Program-made: the position numbers
Assembly: GCF_032191835.1 (NCBI RefSeq)
Contig: NC_083232.1
Span: forward strand, 72,416,001-72,480,000
DNA: 64,000 bases
Direction: 5' to 3'
Source: Heteronotia binoei
Lineage: Eukaryota
Shown: piece by piece, positions 9,001 to 18,000 of the stretch
Layout of the letters: each line of letters starts with the position of its first letter
How positions within the stretch are numbered: position 1 is the stretch's first letter

Positions 9001-12000
9001 CAGAAAAGTCCTCCTGCACATAAAAGTCTATAGGATTAGGGGCCTGAAACTGGAATTCACTGCTTAGTACTATCTTAATTTATAATTCCTCTTGCAAATG
9101 CAAGAGATAAGTGGGACAAGATGGATAACCCTGGCCTGTGTTTTGTTTGGATACACTGTCAGCATTCCATCTCTGCTTTCGATAAAGTCGAGTAACCCAA
9201 TCACTTTCAGAAAAGATGAAGTATTGAAGCTGGGGAAGGGAAGGAATTCTCCAAGGTCCAAGAATGATTAGCTTTTGGCATACAAAGAACCCTTATCTAA
9301 TCCTGTCACCACAGTTTGTTTCCTAGGACATAATAATATCACAGCCACACATAATACACGGAGGCAACTGCTTTGCTTTAGAGCACGGGTGTCAAACTCA
9401 TTTGTTATGAGGGACAGATTTGACATAAATGAGACCTTATCAGGCCGGGCCATATGTATCATAAAATGTAATGCCAGGTAGTGGACATATAAACTTTATA
9501 AAGGACACAAACACAATTAAAGATTTTTTTAACTTAAAATAAAACATGCTTAAAATATTAGCATGCTTGCAATATTCTGTTTTACAGTCTCTGATAAATG
9601 TCACCTCTTCCTATGAATTATTGCACCAAAAATGCAGACAATGTTTGTGCTGTACCAGTCTTGAATGTGTGCTGTTCAGGTGTACACTGTCACGAGCTGG
9701 GGCTGAGTCAGGCAAAGTCCAGGGGCGGTCCAAGGTCGGCAACTCGTGAGCAAGGAGGGTCCAAGGCGCCAAAACAGAATCGTAATCCAGGTATCACAGG
9801 TCAGAGGTTCAGAAGCCGAAGTCAGGGGGTCCAGAGGTCCAAGCCAAAGTCAGGAATCCAAAAGCCAAAGTCAAGAGCCGGAGTGGATGCTAGGATGTCA
9901 GGTATGTGACTAGTTGCTTCCACAAAGCCTCCTCCCAAAGCCCACAACTATATAGCCCTCTGCTGCCTGTTGCTCATTTGGGCTAATTGCTGTCTCAGAG
10001 CAGCAGCCAGGATCCTGCCGAAACTTAAGCATCCTCACACTTAGAAGGGCCAGAATCCTTTCACCAATCAGGGCTCAGGGAGCGTCTTGCTTGTGAGCGT
10101 GCCGCCCTCCTCCGATCCCTGAGGTCCTGACGGAGGCGGTCACGCACACGAGCCACCCGAGAGGGCGAGGCAGGGGGGCTTGGATCTTCTTCAGCAGGAG
10201 GCAGGGGCACTGGTGCAGGTGGCAGAGGCACAGTTGCTTCTGCAGGCTCTGCAGGCTCGGTTTCTTCTGCAGGGTCCCCAGCACCCATGACACTATCCCC
10301 CCCCCCAGGGCCTCCCTCCGTCGAGGGGCCTGGGAGGTCGGGGTGGTCGCTGTGGAATTGTTGCACCAAGTCCGGGGCATGAAGATTGTCCACAGGTTCC
10401 CAGGACCGGTCTTCCGGGCCGTATCCCTCCCAGTCCACAAGGTACTGGAGGCCTCCACGATGGTACCGGGAGTCCAGAATCTGGCGCACCTCATATTCTT
10501 CCTCGTCATCCACCAACACCGGTGGTGGCGGCGGTGGGGAAGGAGGCCGAGCTGGGTCAGGGGGTGCAGCTGGAACAAGGAGGGAGCGATGGAACACAGG
10601 GTGAATGCGGAGGTGGGGTGGCAACTGGAGCCTGAAGGCGACGGGGTTTATTTGTTCTACGACGGGGTACGGTCCAATGAACCGTGCATCCAGCTTGTGA
10701 GACCGACCAGGCCGGCGCAGGTAGCGAGTTGAGAGCCACACCTGATCCCCCGGCTGCACTGGAGGACCTTCTTGCCTCTTTCGGTCCGCAGCCCGTTTAT
10801 ATGCCTCCTTGGCCTGATGTAGCTGCTCTCGGAGCAAGTCTTGGCTGGCGCGGAGTTCTTGCAGGTAGGCATCGACGGCGGGGACATTCGTGGGTGGTAG
10901 GATTGCCGGGAAGAACCGAGGGTGGTACCCGTAGGTTGCAGCAAACGGGGTCATTTGGGTGGATGAATGGACCGCGTTGTTGTATGCAAACTCCGCTAGG
11001 GGCAATAGAGTGGTCCAGTCATCCTGCTGGTAACAGGTGTAACAGCGGAGATATTGCTCTAGCGTGGCATTGGTGCGCTCTGTCTGGCCATCTGTCTGTG
11101 GGTGGTAGGCTGAGGACAGGTGCACTCGAGTACCCAGGCTGGAATGGAGGGCTTGCCAGAACCGAGAGGAGAACTGAGGGCCCCGATCGGAGATCAGATG
11201 GGCTGGGAGTCCGTGCAGACGAAAGATGTGTTGCAGGTAAAGCTGGGCCGTCTCCTGAGCTGTGGGAAGTTTCGGGCACGGAACAAAGTGGGCCATCTTG
11301 GTAAATAGGTCGACGACCACCCAGATACAAGTCTGACCCTTGGAGCGCGGAAGTTCCGTGATGAAGTCCATCGAGATGGTCTCCCAGGGTCCTGAAGATG
11401 TGGGCAAGGGCTGTAGCAACCCTGAGGGTTTGGCTGGGATGTCTTTGGCCCGTCGGCAGACGTCACAGGAGCTGACATAACGGGCAACATCAGCGTGAAC
11501 TCGTGGCCACCAGAATTCCCTTGTCAGCAAGTGGGTGGTCTTATGCTGTCCAAAGTGCCCGGCGGGTAACGAGTCGTGGGTCAGGCGTAGCACTTCTGCC
11601 CGCAAGGGCCCGGGCGGCACATAGAGGCGTTCGCGGTGTAGCAAGAGGCTGCCTCGAGTCGTGAACTCGCCTGTTGGGTCATCTTGGAGAGCCTGGAGGT
11701 GTTGCTGGACCCAGGGATCATTGGCCTGGCTAGCCCGAATGTCCTCCACGAGTGCTGGTGAAGTGGAGGTGGCTGCAAATACTGAGGGCGGCAGGATTGG
11801 AGCAGCGGGCGTGGTCTCAGTTGAGGCAGGGGCGTATTCCGGTTTCCGGGAGAGCGCGTCTGCTTTCCGGTTCTGGGTATGGGGGATGTAGGAGATCCGG
11901 AAGTCGAAGCGAGAGAAGAATAGGGACCACCGGATCTGGCGCTGGTTGAGACGGCGGGTGGTCTGGAGGTGTTCCAAGTTCCGGTGATCGGTGAGCACTT

Positions 12001-15000: not shown

Positions 15001-18000
15001 CACCAATCAGGGCTCAGGGAGCGTCTTGCTTGTGAGCGTGCCGCCCTCCTCCGATCCCTGAGGTCCTGACGGAGGCGGTCACGCACACGAGCCACCCGAG
15101 AGGGCGAGGCAGGGGGGCTTGGATCTTCTTCAGCAGGAGGCAGGGGCACTGGTGCAGGTGGCAGAGGCACAGTTGCTTCTGCAGGCTCTGCAGGCTCGGT
15201 TTCTTCTGCAGGGTCCCCAGCACCCATGACATACACATCTGTAAGTTGCAAACCTACTTTTGATTCATTGGCATTCATTACAGATATCTCATGGTCAATG
15301 CTTCGAGGCTAAGACCCAGAGGAACATGAAGCAGTTGGACACTGTGAGCTTTTGTACAGAAGTTGCTTAATGCACTAGTCAAGAACATGTGAAGGCACCA
15401 TGGCATAGACTGAGGACTATGTGCTTGTCTACAAAACTATAATTTTCCCCAGAAAATTTTCCCCTGGGGTGGAACACACTCTCAGCTTAATTTTGATATT
15501 TCTTTTCTAAATAGTTCACATGCTTTCCTATTGAGAAAGACTGGAGGGCATGAGTACAGTGAAAAAGAGGAGAGGAACCCAGTTACACCCATAACAAGCC
15601 CAAAAAAACTCTCCCTCTCTCTGTAGCAAGGCAAAAAGCTCATACCTTCACTAAAACGTTGCTAGTCTTAAAAGCACTCTTTGTAGCACTCCTGATGGTG
15701 GGGACTGGCAAAAGCAGCTCTGGCTCTTTCTTTCCTTCCCTGGGGCACGATGAGGGGGAGGAGCCTCAGCCATTTATTAGAAGGAAGAGAGGTTTGTCTC
15801 AGTAGCTCTCAGGGTGATTAATTGAGCCTGGCAAACTTAATCACCCAGCAGAGCTATAGAGCTAAGCTATAGAGCTCAGCCACTGGCTGAGGCTGCTCTT
15901 CCCTCCTCCTCCCTTTGGGAAAAGAGAGGGGGGAGAGGGAAAGGCTGCTTTGCTGCTCTGGCCTGTCCGGGGAGAAACACAAAATGGCGACCGGAAAAAG
16001 CAGGCAAGGGAAAATGAAGCAGACAAGTCAGTTGCTGGAGGGCCTGATTGGAGCCCTCAGTGGGCCTGATCCGGCCTGCAAGCTGTATGTTTGACACCCT
16101 TGCTTTAGAGGGACAGCCATGCCACTATATACAGAAACACACATACCATTTAAGAATGTTATGATGCAGTAGCTGTTCACAATTGAATGAGCAGCTACTA
16201 AAGCACAGACTAATGCACACCAATGGAGAATGTTTGATAGTTATATGTGTATGCAGAAAAAAACAACTATTACTTTAAAACTGTGCAGGCCCTGCCATCA
16301 ACTTCCTGGAATGCAACCAAAGATCCAGAGACTTCAGCAGAAGCAGAACTTTCCCCTTCTCTCTCCTGTGGCAGCTCACTGAGCTCACACCCCAAATTTT
16401 GTTTCTGGGTGTTGGTGGACTCTCAGGGACAACACAGGGTGAAATGGGGAGTCTCCAGTGGGAATTAATGGAAACTGCCAACCCCTCTTCCTACCACTTT
16501 GGAACTGCATGGTTAAATACCTATCATTCCTTTCTAACTACCAAAAATGAGCTATGAAATAAATAAACCCATGAAGGAGCTGTGTGCTAAGAAACTTCCA
16601 AATAACTTAAAATGGAGGGGGAGGGATAAGCTATACAATCATTACTTTGCATCATTATTTTGCTTGTTGTATTCATGTAAATAGTTATACCCTGCTTTTC
16701 CCCAACTAAACTGTCTCCTTGAGAAAGTTTTTTTAAAAGATGTAATTCATGCACTGCCATATACTTGAACTCTAGAACAATACATTAAATCACATACTGG
16801 TCGGATGAGCTGTGTGCAGTATGCAATAAACCAACTGTAATAATCTCCTTACTGCATTCCACACAACAATCACAGTAACTGTGAAACTGCTGTCTGGGGC
16901 AAGTGTTGCATGTTCTCCAGGTCCAAAATTGGTCCAGGCCTCCTCTCCATGGAAAGGACTTTCTCAGCAGTAGAGCTTCTGTGTTGCATGCAGAAGGTTC
17001 CAAATTCAGTCCTATGCACGTTCAGTTAAAGGGGTCAGGTAGTAACCTGAGACCCCAGAGAGATGCTGCCAGTCTATAATAGACCAAGGGCCTGATTCAG
17101 TATAAGGCAGCTTCATGAACTCATCATGGTTTGAATGTCTAGAGAATGTTATACTCTCAAAGTGCTACCTGAAGACTATGTGAAACCAGCTGAATTTTTT
17201 AAAAGCATGCATTACATGCACAAAAATATCTTTTTAGTGACATTCAGAAAGCCTTCTTTGCAGGCTGACAGTTCTGCCCTCAAAACACTTCCTTCTCCAT
17301 TAACAGCTGCCTACAGATTGTTACCCATCAGAAATTTTCCTCACTAGACTTTTTCCAGTGGCACGGTGCTTATGTCCATGGTTACTAGAAAGGATCATTC
17401 AGAGTGAGAAAGAGAACAGATTTTATCGTTTTCTGAAGTGAAACTTTTTAGTTCCAATTTTAGCTTTCAGACTTCCTGGTTTCAAAAACAGTGTGAAAGT
17501 AGATAATCTCAAGTGCTGGTGAAAACATGTTCTTCGGCACTACTGAAGTCCTCTCAGGCTTTACAGCCCACCAACCTGAGAAGAATGCAAGCAGATGGCC
17601 TGAACAGAAAGACATCATTATTACATTAGCCTGAAGACATTTGCAGCTCCAGTACGTTGTTTCAACAAGCCAGGTATTATAACCAAAAACTGTGTGAGAA
17701 TATCAAGTTAAACTCACTCAGAGCAGGGGGATAAATTAAGGCTTCACATACTGCCTGATTTTTTTTCTTGCTGGAAAATATGTTTTAATTTATAGCCATA
17801 AAACCATATTTACAGTGTTATCGAGGGTGATGATTTTGTTATATATTTGATTAATTACAACTAAACTGTAGTGACAAGCCACTTTTAAAAACTTGGAAGC
17901 GCTGTTCAAACAACTAAAAGACTGTGAAGGGTTAATTCTTCACAGAACCAGAGAGCCTTGAGTGACAGGTGGCTTCAAGCAATCTGATTGGTGGGCATCA

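What the first reader, a model, noticed from the sequence alone, without database searches (positions are those of the whole stretch)
9688..15231. Complete, apparently transposition-competent, very young LTR retrotransposon in a LARS2 intron, in sense orientation
Seen in sequence: the LTRs match at 604/605 positions, the TACAC TSD is perfect, and gag and pol are uninterrupted. All catalytic motifs are present (DSG, YLDD, RNase H D-E-D, HHCC, DDE), CpGs have not decayed, and PPT and PBS are intact. The element adds 5.5 kb to the intron between the exons at 19092-19169 and 8564-8675, on the same strand as this essential mitochondrial gene. Inference: the insertion is very recent (one mismatch could even be an RT error), may be polymorphic, and belongs to a currently active family related to the lineage that gave rise to mammalian PEG10/RTL genes.
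Basis: partly seen in the sequence, partly recalled or inferred. Interest (0 to 1): 0.68.

Follow-up and report, generated by a model that had tools for sequence, protein, structure and literature searches.

The report
Young intact chromovirus in LARS2 intron
A complete, recently inserted Ty3/gypsy 'chromovirus' retrotransposon sits in an intron of a lizard's mitochondrial leucyl-tRNA synthetase gene; this kind of element is ordinary in reptiles, and it is notable mainly because its capsid gene is a close living relative of the mammalian placenta gene PEG10.

Summary
Window 9688-15231 (minus strand) is a 5,544-bp LTR retrotransposon. Its two 605-bp LTRs match at 604 of 605 positions, with TG..CA ends and a perfect 5-bp TACAC duplication. 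Gag is an uninterrupted 296 codons. The pol frame is 1,231 codons, in the -1 frame with a 58-nt overlap, and reads PR-RT-RNaseH-IN-chromodomain. Pol keeps 200 of 203 near-invariant family columns. The element lies in a 10,416-bp intron of a squamate LARS2, on the gene's strand.

New points:
- The primer-binding site is not tRNA-type. It is a 10-nt complement of an LTR motif 31 nt after a TATA box, which fits Tf1/sushi self-priming.
- Gag is 50% identical to marsupial PEG10 and groups with it in 194 of 200 bootstraps.
- PEG10's slippery heptamer is absent.
- A 90.6%-identical solo LTR lies at 48281-48876.

Youth is supported (about 0.3-0.8 My with recalled rates). Current activity, polymorphism and competence were untestable because no host genome was available. 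Verdict: a new member of a known kind, the reptile chromoviruses.

The parts
9683..9687 (.). Target-site duplication, copy beside the element's 3' LTR (TACAC)
9688..15231 (-). Full-length LTR retrotransposon, 5,544 bp (605 + 4,334 + 605)
9688..10292 (-). 3' LTR in element sense, 605 bp. Its first 232 nt (element sense) encode the last 76 codons and stop of pol. It carries the one derived LTR difference.
10293..10319 (-). Purine-rich tract (PPT) abutting the 3' LTR. It includes a G10 run and lies inside the pol reading frame.
10061..13756 (-). pol reading frame, 1,231 codons with no internal stop, in the -1 frame relative to gag. The first ATG is at 13576.
13286..13576 (-). Aspartyl protease domain (RVP_2; DSG)
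12491..12973 (-). Reverse transcriptase domain (RVT_1; YLDD)
11906..12304 (-). RNase H domain (RT_RNaseH_2 / RT_RNaseH)
11444..11614 (-). Integrase zinc-binding domain (H2C2)
11099..11389 (-). Integrase catalytic core (rve; D, D-35-E)
10571..10750 (-). Integrase C-terminal SH3 domain of Tf2-1 type
10349..10495 (-). Chromodomain at the C-terminus of integrase
13699..14589 (-). gag ORF, 296 codons plus stop: DUF4939 (14227-14535), capsid (14002-14427), CCHC knuckle (13717-13815)
13699..13756 (-). 58-nt gag/pol overlap, where a -1 shift must occur. It has no X XXY YYZ heptamer. CCAAAAG lies at 13716-13722.
13674..13715 (-). Predicted stem-loop just 3' of CCAAAAG, a candidate frameshift stimulator that is not statistically supported
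   Evidence: 22 of 200 shuffles fold as well
14615..14624 (-). Primer-binding site of self-priming type (TTGCTTCCAC), 2 nt after the 5' LTR
14627..15231 (-). 5' LTR in element sense, 605 bp
14853..14862 (-). Candidate self-primer and predicted transcript start (GTGGAAGCAA, LTR positions 370-379), a perfect complement of the PBS
14888..14893 (-). TATATA box in the 5' LTR (LTR positions 339-344), 31 nt start-to-start upstream of the self-primer
15232..15236 (.). Target-site duplication, copy beside the element's 5' LTR (TACAC)
19092..19169 (-). LARS2 exon upstream of the host intron (aligns to residues 740-765 of gecko LARS2)
8564..8675 (-). LARS2 exon downstream of the host intron (anticodon-binding domain)
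48281..48876 (+). Solo LTR of the same family, 596 bp and 90.6% identical, flanked by its own 5-bp duplication CCTTG, antisense to LARS2 in another intron

Best explanation
This is a full-length, unbroken, recently integrated autonomous LTR retrotransposon. It belongs to the chromodomain-bearing Ty3/gypsy lineage (Metaviridae, chromovirus, Tf1/sushi type). It lies on the minus strand in an intron of the mitochondrial leucyl-tRNA synthetase gene (LARS2) of a squamate, and among the references compared the host is closest to geckos.

Inferred life cycle. Transcription starts about 30 nt after a TATA box in the 5' LTR. The first 10 nt of that RNA fold back onto a complementary site 2 nt beyond the LTR and prime minus-strand DNA synthesis, without a tRNA. 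This is Tf1-type self-priming. Gag (capsid plus CCHC nucleocapsid) is the main product. A -1 ribosomal shift in a 58-nt overlap gives Gag-Pol (protease, RT, RNase H, integrase with chromodomain). The purine tract next to the 3' LTR primes plus-strand synthesis. Integration makes a 5-bp duplication.

Shown: the anatomy, the open frames, the domains, the complementarity, the host gene and strand, and the likeness to PEG10. Inferred: the transcript start, the self-priming, the frameshift and its site, the age, and any present-day activity.
For: Structure:
- LTRs match at 604 of 605 positions, with TG..CA ends and a TACAC duplication.
- Gag has 296 codons and pol 1,231 codons, both uninterrupted, with pol in the -1 frame and a 58-nt overlap.

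Domains:
- Gag: DUF4939 (1.6e-19), Retrotrans_gag (6.4e-15), Ty3_capsid (2.2e-12). zf-CCHC_5 scores 20.5 bits, below Pfam's cut-off of 27.
- Pol: RVP_2, RVT_1 (4e-37), RT_RNaseH (2.5e-34), Integrase_H2C2, rve, SH3_Tf2-1 (4.1e-20), Chromo (2.1e-13).
- Solved structures: Ty3 Gag-Pol 7q5b at 2.7e-149 and the CBX1 chromodomain at 1.3e-14.

Intactness:
- Pol agrees with 200 of 203 columns in which at least 95% of 105 relatives share a residue. The leave-one-out median among relatives is 2 disagreements, range 0-62.
- One search used 105 of the 120 listed relatives, kept by length 1050-1600.

Self-priming:
- A 10-nt perfect complement links LTR positions 370-379 to positions 3-12 after the LTR, with a TATATA box at 339-344.
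- At least 10 nt of complement arose in 17 of 2000 shuffles, and both the motif and the TATA box are kept at the same spacing in the 90.6% solo LTR.
- The helix appears in both the MFE and centroid folds and is extended by 2+5 pairs.
- There is no TGG in the 37 nt after the LTR, and no ATG in the 273-nt predicted leader.

Frameshift:
- The pol-frame residues upstream of its first ATG align to relatives that carry gag domains upstream in the same predicted protein (P0108, P0085, P0014), starting at pol residues 3, 19 and 38.
- Squamate relatives include separate pol proteins of about 1,210-1,240 aa and separate gag proteins of about 300 aa.

Host gene: 13 colinear minus-strand tblastn matches cover residues 203-809 of 904 of Gekko japonicus LARS2, at 85.5% over 668 aligned residues.

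Youth: CpG o/e is 0.60 against 0.19-0.21 in flanks.

Literature (passages only): Tf1/sushi elements are chromoviruses that self-prime and mostly use -1 frameshifting (PMC10085805). Full-length chromoviruses persist in reptiles (PMC3670739).
Against: - No canonical X XXY YYZ heptamer lies in the overlap. The downstream stem-loop is no better than 22 of 200 shuffles (z -1.30).
- No AATAAA or ATTAAA occurs in either LTR, so the R/U5 border is undefined.
- The whole-leader fold is not unusual (z -0.42; 69 of 200 shuffles). That sequence was cut to begin at the complement, so the fold is not independent evidence.
- The second flanking duplex of the 'pretzel' is unsupported (134 of 500 shuffles).
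- No near-identical protein was found: best pol matches are 77% (partial, 71% cover) and 63% (94% cover), and best gag matches are 69% and 64%. Nothing therefore shows other recent copies.
- One search scored only the 8000 candidates sharing the most words and listed 120.
- LTR identity rests on one assembly.
Confidence: 0.85

Rival explanations
1. The element is structurally intact but no longer functional. Its open frames and LTRs are preserved only because it is young, and the non-canonical gag-pol overlap and the missing poly(A) hexamer mean it cannot complete its cycle.
For: No X XXY YYZ heptamer lies in the overlap, whereas PEG10 uses GGGAAAC (PMC10570562, passage). A Gly-Asn pair occurs in 14 of 41 gag tails, both PEG10s included, but not in the window's. 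No canonical poly(A) hexamer occurs in the LTR. No near-identical copies were seen.
Against: In place of Gly-Asn the window's tail reads K[EG]QP, and 4 relatives share this (5 of 41 tails). This suggests a conserved alternative rather than decay. Pol keeps 200 of 203 near-invariant columns. The self-primer and TATA box are conserved in a 9%-diverged LTR.
Confidence: 0.2
2. The insertion is old, and its LTRs have been kept alike by gene conversion between them.
For: Nothing positive. It cannot be excluded without the orthologous locus in other species.
Against: Both long frames are unbroken. CpG o/e is 0.60 against about 0.2 in the flanks. The duplication is perfect. Pol keeps 200 of 203 conserved columns. 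Conversion between LTRs would not protect the 4.3-kb interior.
Confidence: 0.04
3. It is an assembly artefact. Either the two LTRs were collapsed or polished to near-identity, or a repeat copy was misplaced into this intron.
For: Only one assembly was seen, and repeats are prone to collapse. The window has two N runs elsewhere, at 59179-59308 and 59474-59869.
Against: The same 5-bp sequence flanks both ends. The flanks are continuous AT-rich intron between two consecutive LARS2 exons. One LTR difference survives, so the LTRs were not simply copied.
Confidence: 0.05
4. It is an endogenous retrovirus rather than a retrotransposon.
For: Retroviral RT and integrase structures match pol, but far more weakly than Ty3 does: 1e-35 and weaker against 2.7e-149.
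Against: There is no room for env, because pol runs into the 3' LTR and gag starts 37 nt after the 5' LTR. Ty3 is the best structural match. The element has a chromodomain and a Tf2-type SH3 domain.
Confidence: 0.01

Closest known systems
Tf1/sushi group of chromoviruses (sushi-ichi of Takifugu, Tf1/Tf2 of fission yeast), as described in PMC10085805 (passages) and, through citation only, Butler et al. 2001 (not held)
   Same: Chromodomain at the integrase C-terminus. Tf2-1-type SH3 domain. A PBS complementary to the predicted 5' end of its own RNA. Pol in the -1 frame. A 5-bp duplication.
   Different: Only one of the two flanking 'pretzel' duplexes is seen. Gag has a CCHC knuckle, which the fission-yeast members lack according to the paper. 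No tree with named sushi-ichi or Tf1 could be built.
PEG10 (therian domesticated gag-protease gene)
   Same: Gag is 50% identical over 276 residues to wombat PEG10, CCHC knuckle included. It matches PEG10 capsid 7lga at 8e-18. It joins PEG10 and the squamate elements against amphibian and fish elements in 194 of 200 bootstraps. Both have a -1 second frame starting 17-21 residues after the CCHC motif.
   Different: The window element keeps LTRs, RT, RNase H and integrase. It lacks PEG10's GGGAAAC heptamer and its Gly-Asn pair (PMC10570562). PEG10's place relative to lizard and snake elements is unresolved: inside the lizard group in 74 of 200 replicates, outside squamates in 15 of 200.
Reptile chromoviruses ('Chromovir' of Kokosar and Kordis 2013, PMC3670739; Gypsy-15_Ano, the Anolis proxy for the PEG10 clade in PMC11011659)
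   Same: They are full-length Metaviridae in squamate genomes, regarded as living relatives of the progenitors of the sushi/RTL genes (passages). The best protein relatives are from Gekko, Podarcis, Anolis and Phrynocephalus.
   Different: PMC11011659 states that its proxy Gypsy-15_Ano has no frameshift, whereas this element has the two-frame layout. Identity to any listed squamate protein is at most 77%.
Ty3 of budding yeast
   Same: Same domain order and the best solved-structure match (7q5b, 2.7e-149, pol residues 206-1071).
   Different: The Ty3 match ends at pol residue 1071, before the chromodomain (residues 1088-1136). The gag match to Ty3 is weak (0.0076). From recall, not from any call: Ty3 has no chromodomain, primes with a tRNA, and uses a +1 frameshift.

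Membership tests
LTR retrotransposon | Two direct terminal repeats with TG..CA ends, flanked by a short target-site duplication | tested here: met
   605-bp LTRs matching at 604 of 605 positions, TGTCA..TGACA ends, TACAC on both sides
LTR retrotransposon | A primer-binding site after the 5' LTR and a purine tract before the 3' LTR | tested here: met
   The purine tract abuts the 3' LTR. The PBS is of self-priming type. No tRNA-type TGG is present.
Ty3/gypsy (Metaviridae) | Pol domain order protease - RT - RNase H - integrase | tested here: met
   Pfam stretches lie in that order along pol. Ty3 Gag-Pol 7q5b matches at 2.7e-149.
Chromovirus | Chromodomain at the C-terminus of integrase | tested here: met
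   PF00385 at 2.1e-13, pol residues 1088-1136. CBX1 and HP1 chromodomains match at 1.3e-14 to 9e-13.
Tf1/sushi group | Self-priming: a PBS complementary to the 5' end of the element's own mRNA | tested here: met
   A 10-nt perfect complement 31 nt after TATATA, reached in 17 of 2000 shuffles, and conserved in the solo LTR. The transcript start itself is inferred, not mapped.
Tf1/sushi group | Three-duplex 'pretzel' leader structure | tested here: inconclusive
   The central duplex and one flanking duplex appear in the MFE and centroid folds. The second flanking duplex is no better than 134 of 500 shuffles.
Tf1/sushi group | Programmed -1 frameshift at the gag-pol junction (the predominant state outside fission yeasts) | tested here: inconclusive
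   The -1 layout and 58-nt overlap are met. The upstream pol-frame residues are homologous to fused relatives. No canonical heptamer is present, and the stem-loop is not significant.
Tf1/sushi group | Monophyly with named members in an RT-IN tree | not testable with these tools
   No named sushi-ichi or Tf1 protein came back from any search, and none could be fetched.
PEG10 / SIRH-RTL progenitor lineage | Gag (DUF4939 plus capsid plus CCHC) specifically similar to PEG10 | tested here: met
   7lga at 8e-18. Vombatus PEG10 at 9e-72, 50% identity over 276 residues. Clade support 194 of 200 (NJ on 45 of 52 hits, those of at least 240 aa).
PEG10 / SIRH-RTL progenitor lineage | A PEG10-type slippery heptamer encoding Gly-Asn just before the gag stop | tested here: not met
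   No such heptamer in the overlap. Gly-Asn occurs in 14 of 41 tails but not in the window's, which reads K[EG]QP as 4 relatives do. The heptamer is quoted in PMC10570562.
Endogenous retrovirus | An env ORF between pol and the 3' LTR | tested here: not met
   Pol ends 232 nt inside the 3' LTR, and no further ORF space exists.
LARS2 (host gene) | Exons matching mitochondrial leucine-tRNA ligase, colinear on one strand | tested here: met
   The frame holding exon 8564-8675 gave 7 hits, of which the 6 named ones are squamate mitochondrial LeuRS and 1 is unnamed. It also matches Anticodon_1 at 4.8e-06. There are 13 colinear HSPs. The search was exon by exon, with no joined model.

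The most novel reading that the evidence does not exclude
This squamate lineage may be the closest living autonomous relative of the element that became therian PEG10. It keeps the -1 gag-pol frameshift at the homologous place, 17-21 residues after the CCHC motif. In its own subclade, however, the PEG10-type Gly-Asn slippery site has been replaced by a different site that is conserved within the subclade (CCAAAAG here, K[EG]QP in 5 of 41 tails). If so, it offers a natural comparison for how PEG10's frameshift signal arose and changed. 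It would also fill a gap noted in PMC11011659, whose chosen proxy for the PEG10 clade lacks a frameshift.
Probability: 0.35. Interest if true: 0.55.

Novelty: new member of a known kind. Interest (0 to 1): 0.4.

Why it matters
Full-length chromoviruses in reptiles are already documented (PMC3670739, PMC11011659), so the element as such is expected. Three things give it modest value.

1. It is a very clean specimen. Both frames are open, the LTRs are 99.8% identical, and the predicted promoter, self-primer, PBS and PPT are all readable. This makes the Tf1-type self-priming design directly visible in an amniote.

2. Its gag is about as close to marsupial PEG10 as it is to snake elements, and it has the two-frame layout that PEG10's ancestor is presumed to have had. 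It is therefore a better descriptive comparator for PEG10's origin than a single-ORF proxy.

3. It is a 5.5-kb, CpG-rich, sense-oriented block that makes up 53% of an intron of an essential housekeeping gene. If the insertion is polymorphic, it would allow a natural test of how such insertions affect host transcripts.

Tried and rejected
- Slippery heptamer: a scan of the overlap found none. The only hit lies after the gag stop.
- Stem-loop after CCAAAAG: dG -29.2, but 22 of 200 shuffles fold as well.
- Second 'pretzel' duplex: not supported.
- Protease region (pol-frame residues 1-200) against solved structures: 0 hits at E up to 1.
- Exon 19092-19169 alone: 0 Pfam families.
- Exon 8564-8675 against solved structures: only a bacterial LeuRS at E 1.2.
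- Exon 8564-8675 as a 37-aa query: too short for the protein search. The stop-to-stop frame holding it was used instead.
- Other copies in the window: tblastn with gag and pol found only the element itself. blastn found the solo LTR only.
- Rfam at gathering scores: nothing inside the element.
- Tandem repeats in the element: only a 9-bp unit x2.2 in each LTR.
- tRNA-type PBS: rejected, because there is no TGG in the 37 nt after the LTR.
- Unusual composition as a sign of horizontal arrival: rejected.
  - The GARP share of the pol core is 0.306 against a median of 0.246.
  - However, 9 of 120 relatives reach it, including the closest full-length relative (Podarcis 0.338), an unnamed relative (0.348) and a Sphenodon protein (0.334).
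- U3-encoded pol tail (weak support for it being coding):
  - The same frame stays open for 73 codons in the solo LTR, against 76 here.
  - The coding part differs less (10 of 223 against 36 of 372, Fisher p 0.026).
  - Differing codons split 3 synonymous to 6 non-synonymous.
- Endogenous-retrovirus reading: rejected, because there is no env.
- Literature: Butler et al. 2001 is not held. A search on gecko LTR elements failed on term syntax and was not repeated, so I make no claim about what is or is not in print on gecko elements.

Full report
OBSERVATION. The feature is real and sits at the stated coordinates.
- A base-by-base comparison at an offset of 4,939 bp shows one continuous match. 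It resolves into two 605-bp LTRs, 9688-10292 and 14627-15231.
- The LTRs differ at one position, A at 9947 against G at 14886, outside any CpG.
- The ends read TGTCA...TGACA, and TACAC flanks both sides at 9683-9687 and 15232-15236.
- The element reads on the minus strand.
- GC is 0.59 and CpG observed/expected 0.60, against 0.40-0.41 and 0.19-0.21 in the 5-kb flanks.

CODING CAPACITY.
- Gag (13699-14589) has 296 codons. The pol frame (10061-13756) is open for 1,231 codons. Breaks counted: none in gag, none in pol.
- Pfam finds DUF4939, Retrotrans_gag and Ty3_capsid in gag. zf-CCHC_5 scores 20.5 bits, below its cut-off of 27, but the CCHC pattern itself is present.
- Pfam finds protease, RT, RNase H, integrase zinc finger, integrase core, a Tf2-1-type SH3 domain and a chromodomain in pol, in that order.
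- Pol matches Ty3 Gag-Pol (7q5b) at 2.7e-149. Its last folded domain matches CBX1/HP1 chromodomains at 1.3e-14.
- The aligned positions read Y, W and Y where CBX1 reads Y, W and F. That these form the methyl-lysine cage is recalled, not from a call.
- DSG, YLDD, the RNase H acidic residues, HHCC and D,D-35-E are all present.
- In an alignment with 105 of the 120 listed relatives (kept by length 1050-1600), pol agrees at 200 of 203 columns where at least 95% of relatives share a residue, and at 330 of 347 columns at the 85% level. Relatives tested the same way disagree at a median of 2 columns, range 0-62.
- Pol ends 232 nt inside the 3' LTR, so the purine tract and the start of U3 are coding.
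- The same frame stays open for 73 codons in a 9%-diverged solo LTR. That part of the LTR differs less than the rest (10 of 223 against 36 of 372, p 0.026). Differing codons split 3 synonymous to 6 non-synonymous, so constraint on the tail is only weakly supported.

PRIMING AND PROMOTER.
- The 37 nt between the 5' LTR and the gag ATG hold no TGG, so there is no tRNA-type site.
- Instead, positions 3-12 after the LTR (TTGCTTCCAC, 14615-14624) are a perfect complement of LTR positions 370-379 (GTGGAAGCAA, 14853-14862). That motif begins 31 nt after the start of a TATATA box at 339-344.
- A complement of at least 10 nt anywhere in the LTR arose in 17 of 2000 shuffles. The TATA box and the motif are both kept, at the same spacing, in the solo LTR.
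- Folding the RNA from position 370 onward pairs its first 10 nt with this site in both the MFE and the centroid structure. The helix is extended by 2+5 pairs that involve the LTR end.
- The whole leader is not unusually stable (z -0.42). The sequence was cut to start at the complement, so the fold is illustration rather than proof.
- The predicted 273-nt leader has no ATG, and the gag ATG has A at -3 and G at +4.
- This is the design described for Tf1 and the Tf1/sushi group: self-primer, PBS just after the LTR, and flanking duplexes forming a 'pretzel' (PMC10085805 and PMC4600332, passages only).
- One flanking duplex is seen here. The second is not (134 of 500 shuffles).

GAG-POL.
- Pol is in the -1 frame and overlaps gag by 58 nt.
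- This is a natural two-frame layout, not a break. Squamate relatives include separate pol proteins of about 1,210-1,240 aa, in clusters of up to 366 members, and separate gag proteins of about 300 aa.
- The pol-frame residues upstream of its first ATG align to relatives with gag and pol in one predicted protein, starting at pol residues 3, 19 and 38.
- No X XXY YYZ heptamer lies in the overlap. That rule is recalled.
- PEG10 shifts at GGGAAAC just before its ORF1 stop (PMC10570562, passage).
- Among 41 of 53 gag proteins with a CCHC motif, 14 have Gly-Asn in the tail, both marsupial PEG10s included. Shuffled tails give a mean of 2.8 and a maximum of 9.
- The window and 4 relatives have K[EG]QP there instead.
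- The window's codons for that site are within CCAAAAG (13716-13722). A 9+3-bp stem-loop follows, and 22 of 200 shuffles fold as well.
- I infer a -1 shift near that site. The exact site is unproven.

HOST GENE.
- I searched the gene model exon by exon and made no joined-exon query, so no whole-protein test of the LARS2 model was done.
- Exon 8564-8675 matches Anticodon_1 at 4.8e-06.
- The frame holding it gave 7 hits. The 6 named ones are squamate mitochondrial leucine-tRNA ligases and 1 is unnamed.
- Three of those seven were run against the window by tblastn. Each gives 13 colinear minus-strand matches. For Gekko japonicus these cover residues 203-809 of 904.
- Identities are 85.5% (Gekko), 81.4% (Sphaerodactylus) and 74.7% (Hemicordylus).
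- The host is therefore a squamate, closest to geckos among those compared.
- The window is not human. No contig was fetched, and nothing I took for human was met.
- Exons 19092-19169 and 8564-8675 are consecutive in the protein (residues 740-765, then from 766).
- The intron is 10,416 bp, of which the element plus one duplication copy is 5,549 bp, or 53%. The element is 3,860 bp from the upstream exon and 1,012 bp from the downstream one.
- Element and gene share a strand.
- In element sense there is one canonical poly(A) hexamer, inside pol, and one GTAAGT. Neither LTR has a poly(A) hexamer.
- That sense-oriented intronic LTR elements are usually selected against is recalled knowledge.

AGE AND FAMILY.
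- One difference in 605 gives K = 0.0017. With recalled squamate rates of 1-2.4e-9 per site per year, this is about 0.34-0.83 My. The Poisson upper 95% bound is 1.9-4.6 My.
- A solo LTR of the family lies at 48281-48876 on the plus strand in another LARS2 intron. It is 596 bp, 90.6% identical, and has its own CCTTG duplication.
- Its CpG count is like the young LTR's (19 against 20). Only 3 of its 29 transition differences are CpG losses. The 9% therefore looks like subfamily divergence more than age.
- The solo LTR has G at the variable column, so the A at 9947 is derived.
- No other gag or pol remnant is in the window.

RELATIVES.
- Best pol relatives: Gekko japonicus (77%, partial, 71% cover), Podarcis muralis (63%, 94% cover) and Anolis carolinensis (56%). 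Fish, amphibian and fungal relatives are at 44-52% (7,986 of 8,000 scored candidates were significant, 120 were listed).
- Best gag relatives: three unnamed proteins (64-69%), Phrynocephalus (63%), Podarcis (56%), then marsupial PEG10 (Vombatus 50%, 9e-72; Gracilinanus 47%). The PEG10s score about the same as the first snake elements and ahead of amphibian and fish ones (34-43%) (52 hits).
- The alignment to wombat PEG10 runs from near the N-terminus through the CCHC knuckle.
- I built a neighbour-joining tree of 45 of the 52 hits (those of at least 240 aa) plus the window, with 200 bootstraps.
  - The split {named squamates + window + PEG10 | named amphibians + fish} appears 194 times.
  - PEG10 falls inside the lizard group 74 times.
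  - PEG10 falls outside all squamates 15 times.
- So PEG10 belongs with this amniote lineage, but its exact sister is unresolved.
- Published work already holds two relevant points.
  - Chromoviruses persist as full-length elements in reptiles and are the source of the sushi/RTL genes (PMC3670739, passages).
  - PEG10's ancestor 'almost certainly' had a frameshift, although the chosen proxy Gypsy-15_Ano has none (PMC11011659, passages).
- The supplements of both papers, which list the reptile elements, were closed and may already include this family.

WHAT STAYED UNCHECKED.
- Copies elsewhere in the host genome, orthologous sites in other species, raw reads and expression. No eukaryotic genome collection was at hand. 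The prokaryote genome collection was not used because it cannot bear on this.
- The N runs at 59179-59308 and 59474-59869 were left as they are.
- Placement against named sushi-ichi and Tf1 was not possible.

VERDICT. This is a genuine, complete and young Tf1/sushi-type chromovirus insertion in a squamate LARS2 intron, in sense orientation. It is a new member of a known kind. Its claims of present activity and polymorphism remain open. The PEG10-like gag with a two-frame layout and a non-PEG10 shift site is the most interesting detail.

Noticed in passing
window 48281-48876 (+), duplications at 48276-48280 and 48877-48881: A solo LTR of the same family, 596 bp and 90.6% identical to the element's LTRs, with its own 5-bp CCTTG duplication. 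It is antisense to LARS2 in another intron and explains the GC peak at 48-50 kb.
   Followed up: yes
window 10061-10292 (-): The pol reading frame runs through the purine tract and 232 nt into the 3' LTR, so U3 encodes a Pro/Ala/Arg-rich 76-residue tail. The frame is kept open for 73 codons in the solo LTR.
   Followed up: partly
window 37855-37926 (-): A tRNA-like sequence in a LARS2 intron. Rfam tRNA scores 54.4 bits, and ARAGORN calls it tRNA-Pro with anticodon GGG. It may be a gene or the head of a tRNA-derived repeat.
   Followed up: no
window 47224-47313 (+): ARAGORN calls a 90-nt tRNA-Ser (TGA), but Rfam does not report it at gathering score, so it is probably not a real tRNA gene.
   Followed up: no
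window 59179-59308 and 59474-59869: Two runs of N, 130 and 396 bases, left as they are.
   Followed up: no
window 10239-10258 and 15178-15197: A 9-bp unit (TCTGCAGGC) repeated 2.2 times near the U3 start of each LTR, the only tandem repeat in the element.
   Followed up: no
gag relatives P0132-P0145, P0166, P0174 (proteins): A Gly-Asn pair recurs in the short tail after the CCHC knuckle in 14 of 41 gag proteins, including both marsupial PEG10s. Shuffled tails give a mean of 2.8. This fits a shared PEG10-type slippery site. The window's subclade has K[EG]QP instead.
   Followed up: partly
window 8550-62758 (-): At least 13 LARS2 exons (residues 203-809 of the 904-residue gecko protein) span about 54 kb of the window. 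No match to residues 810-904 was found in 1-8549.
   Followed up: no
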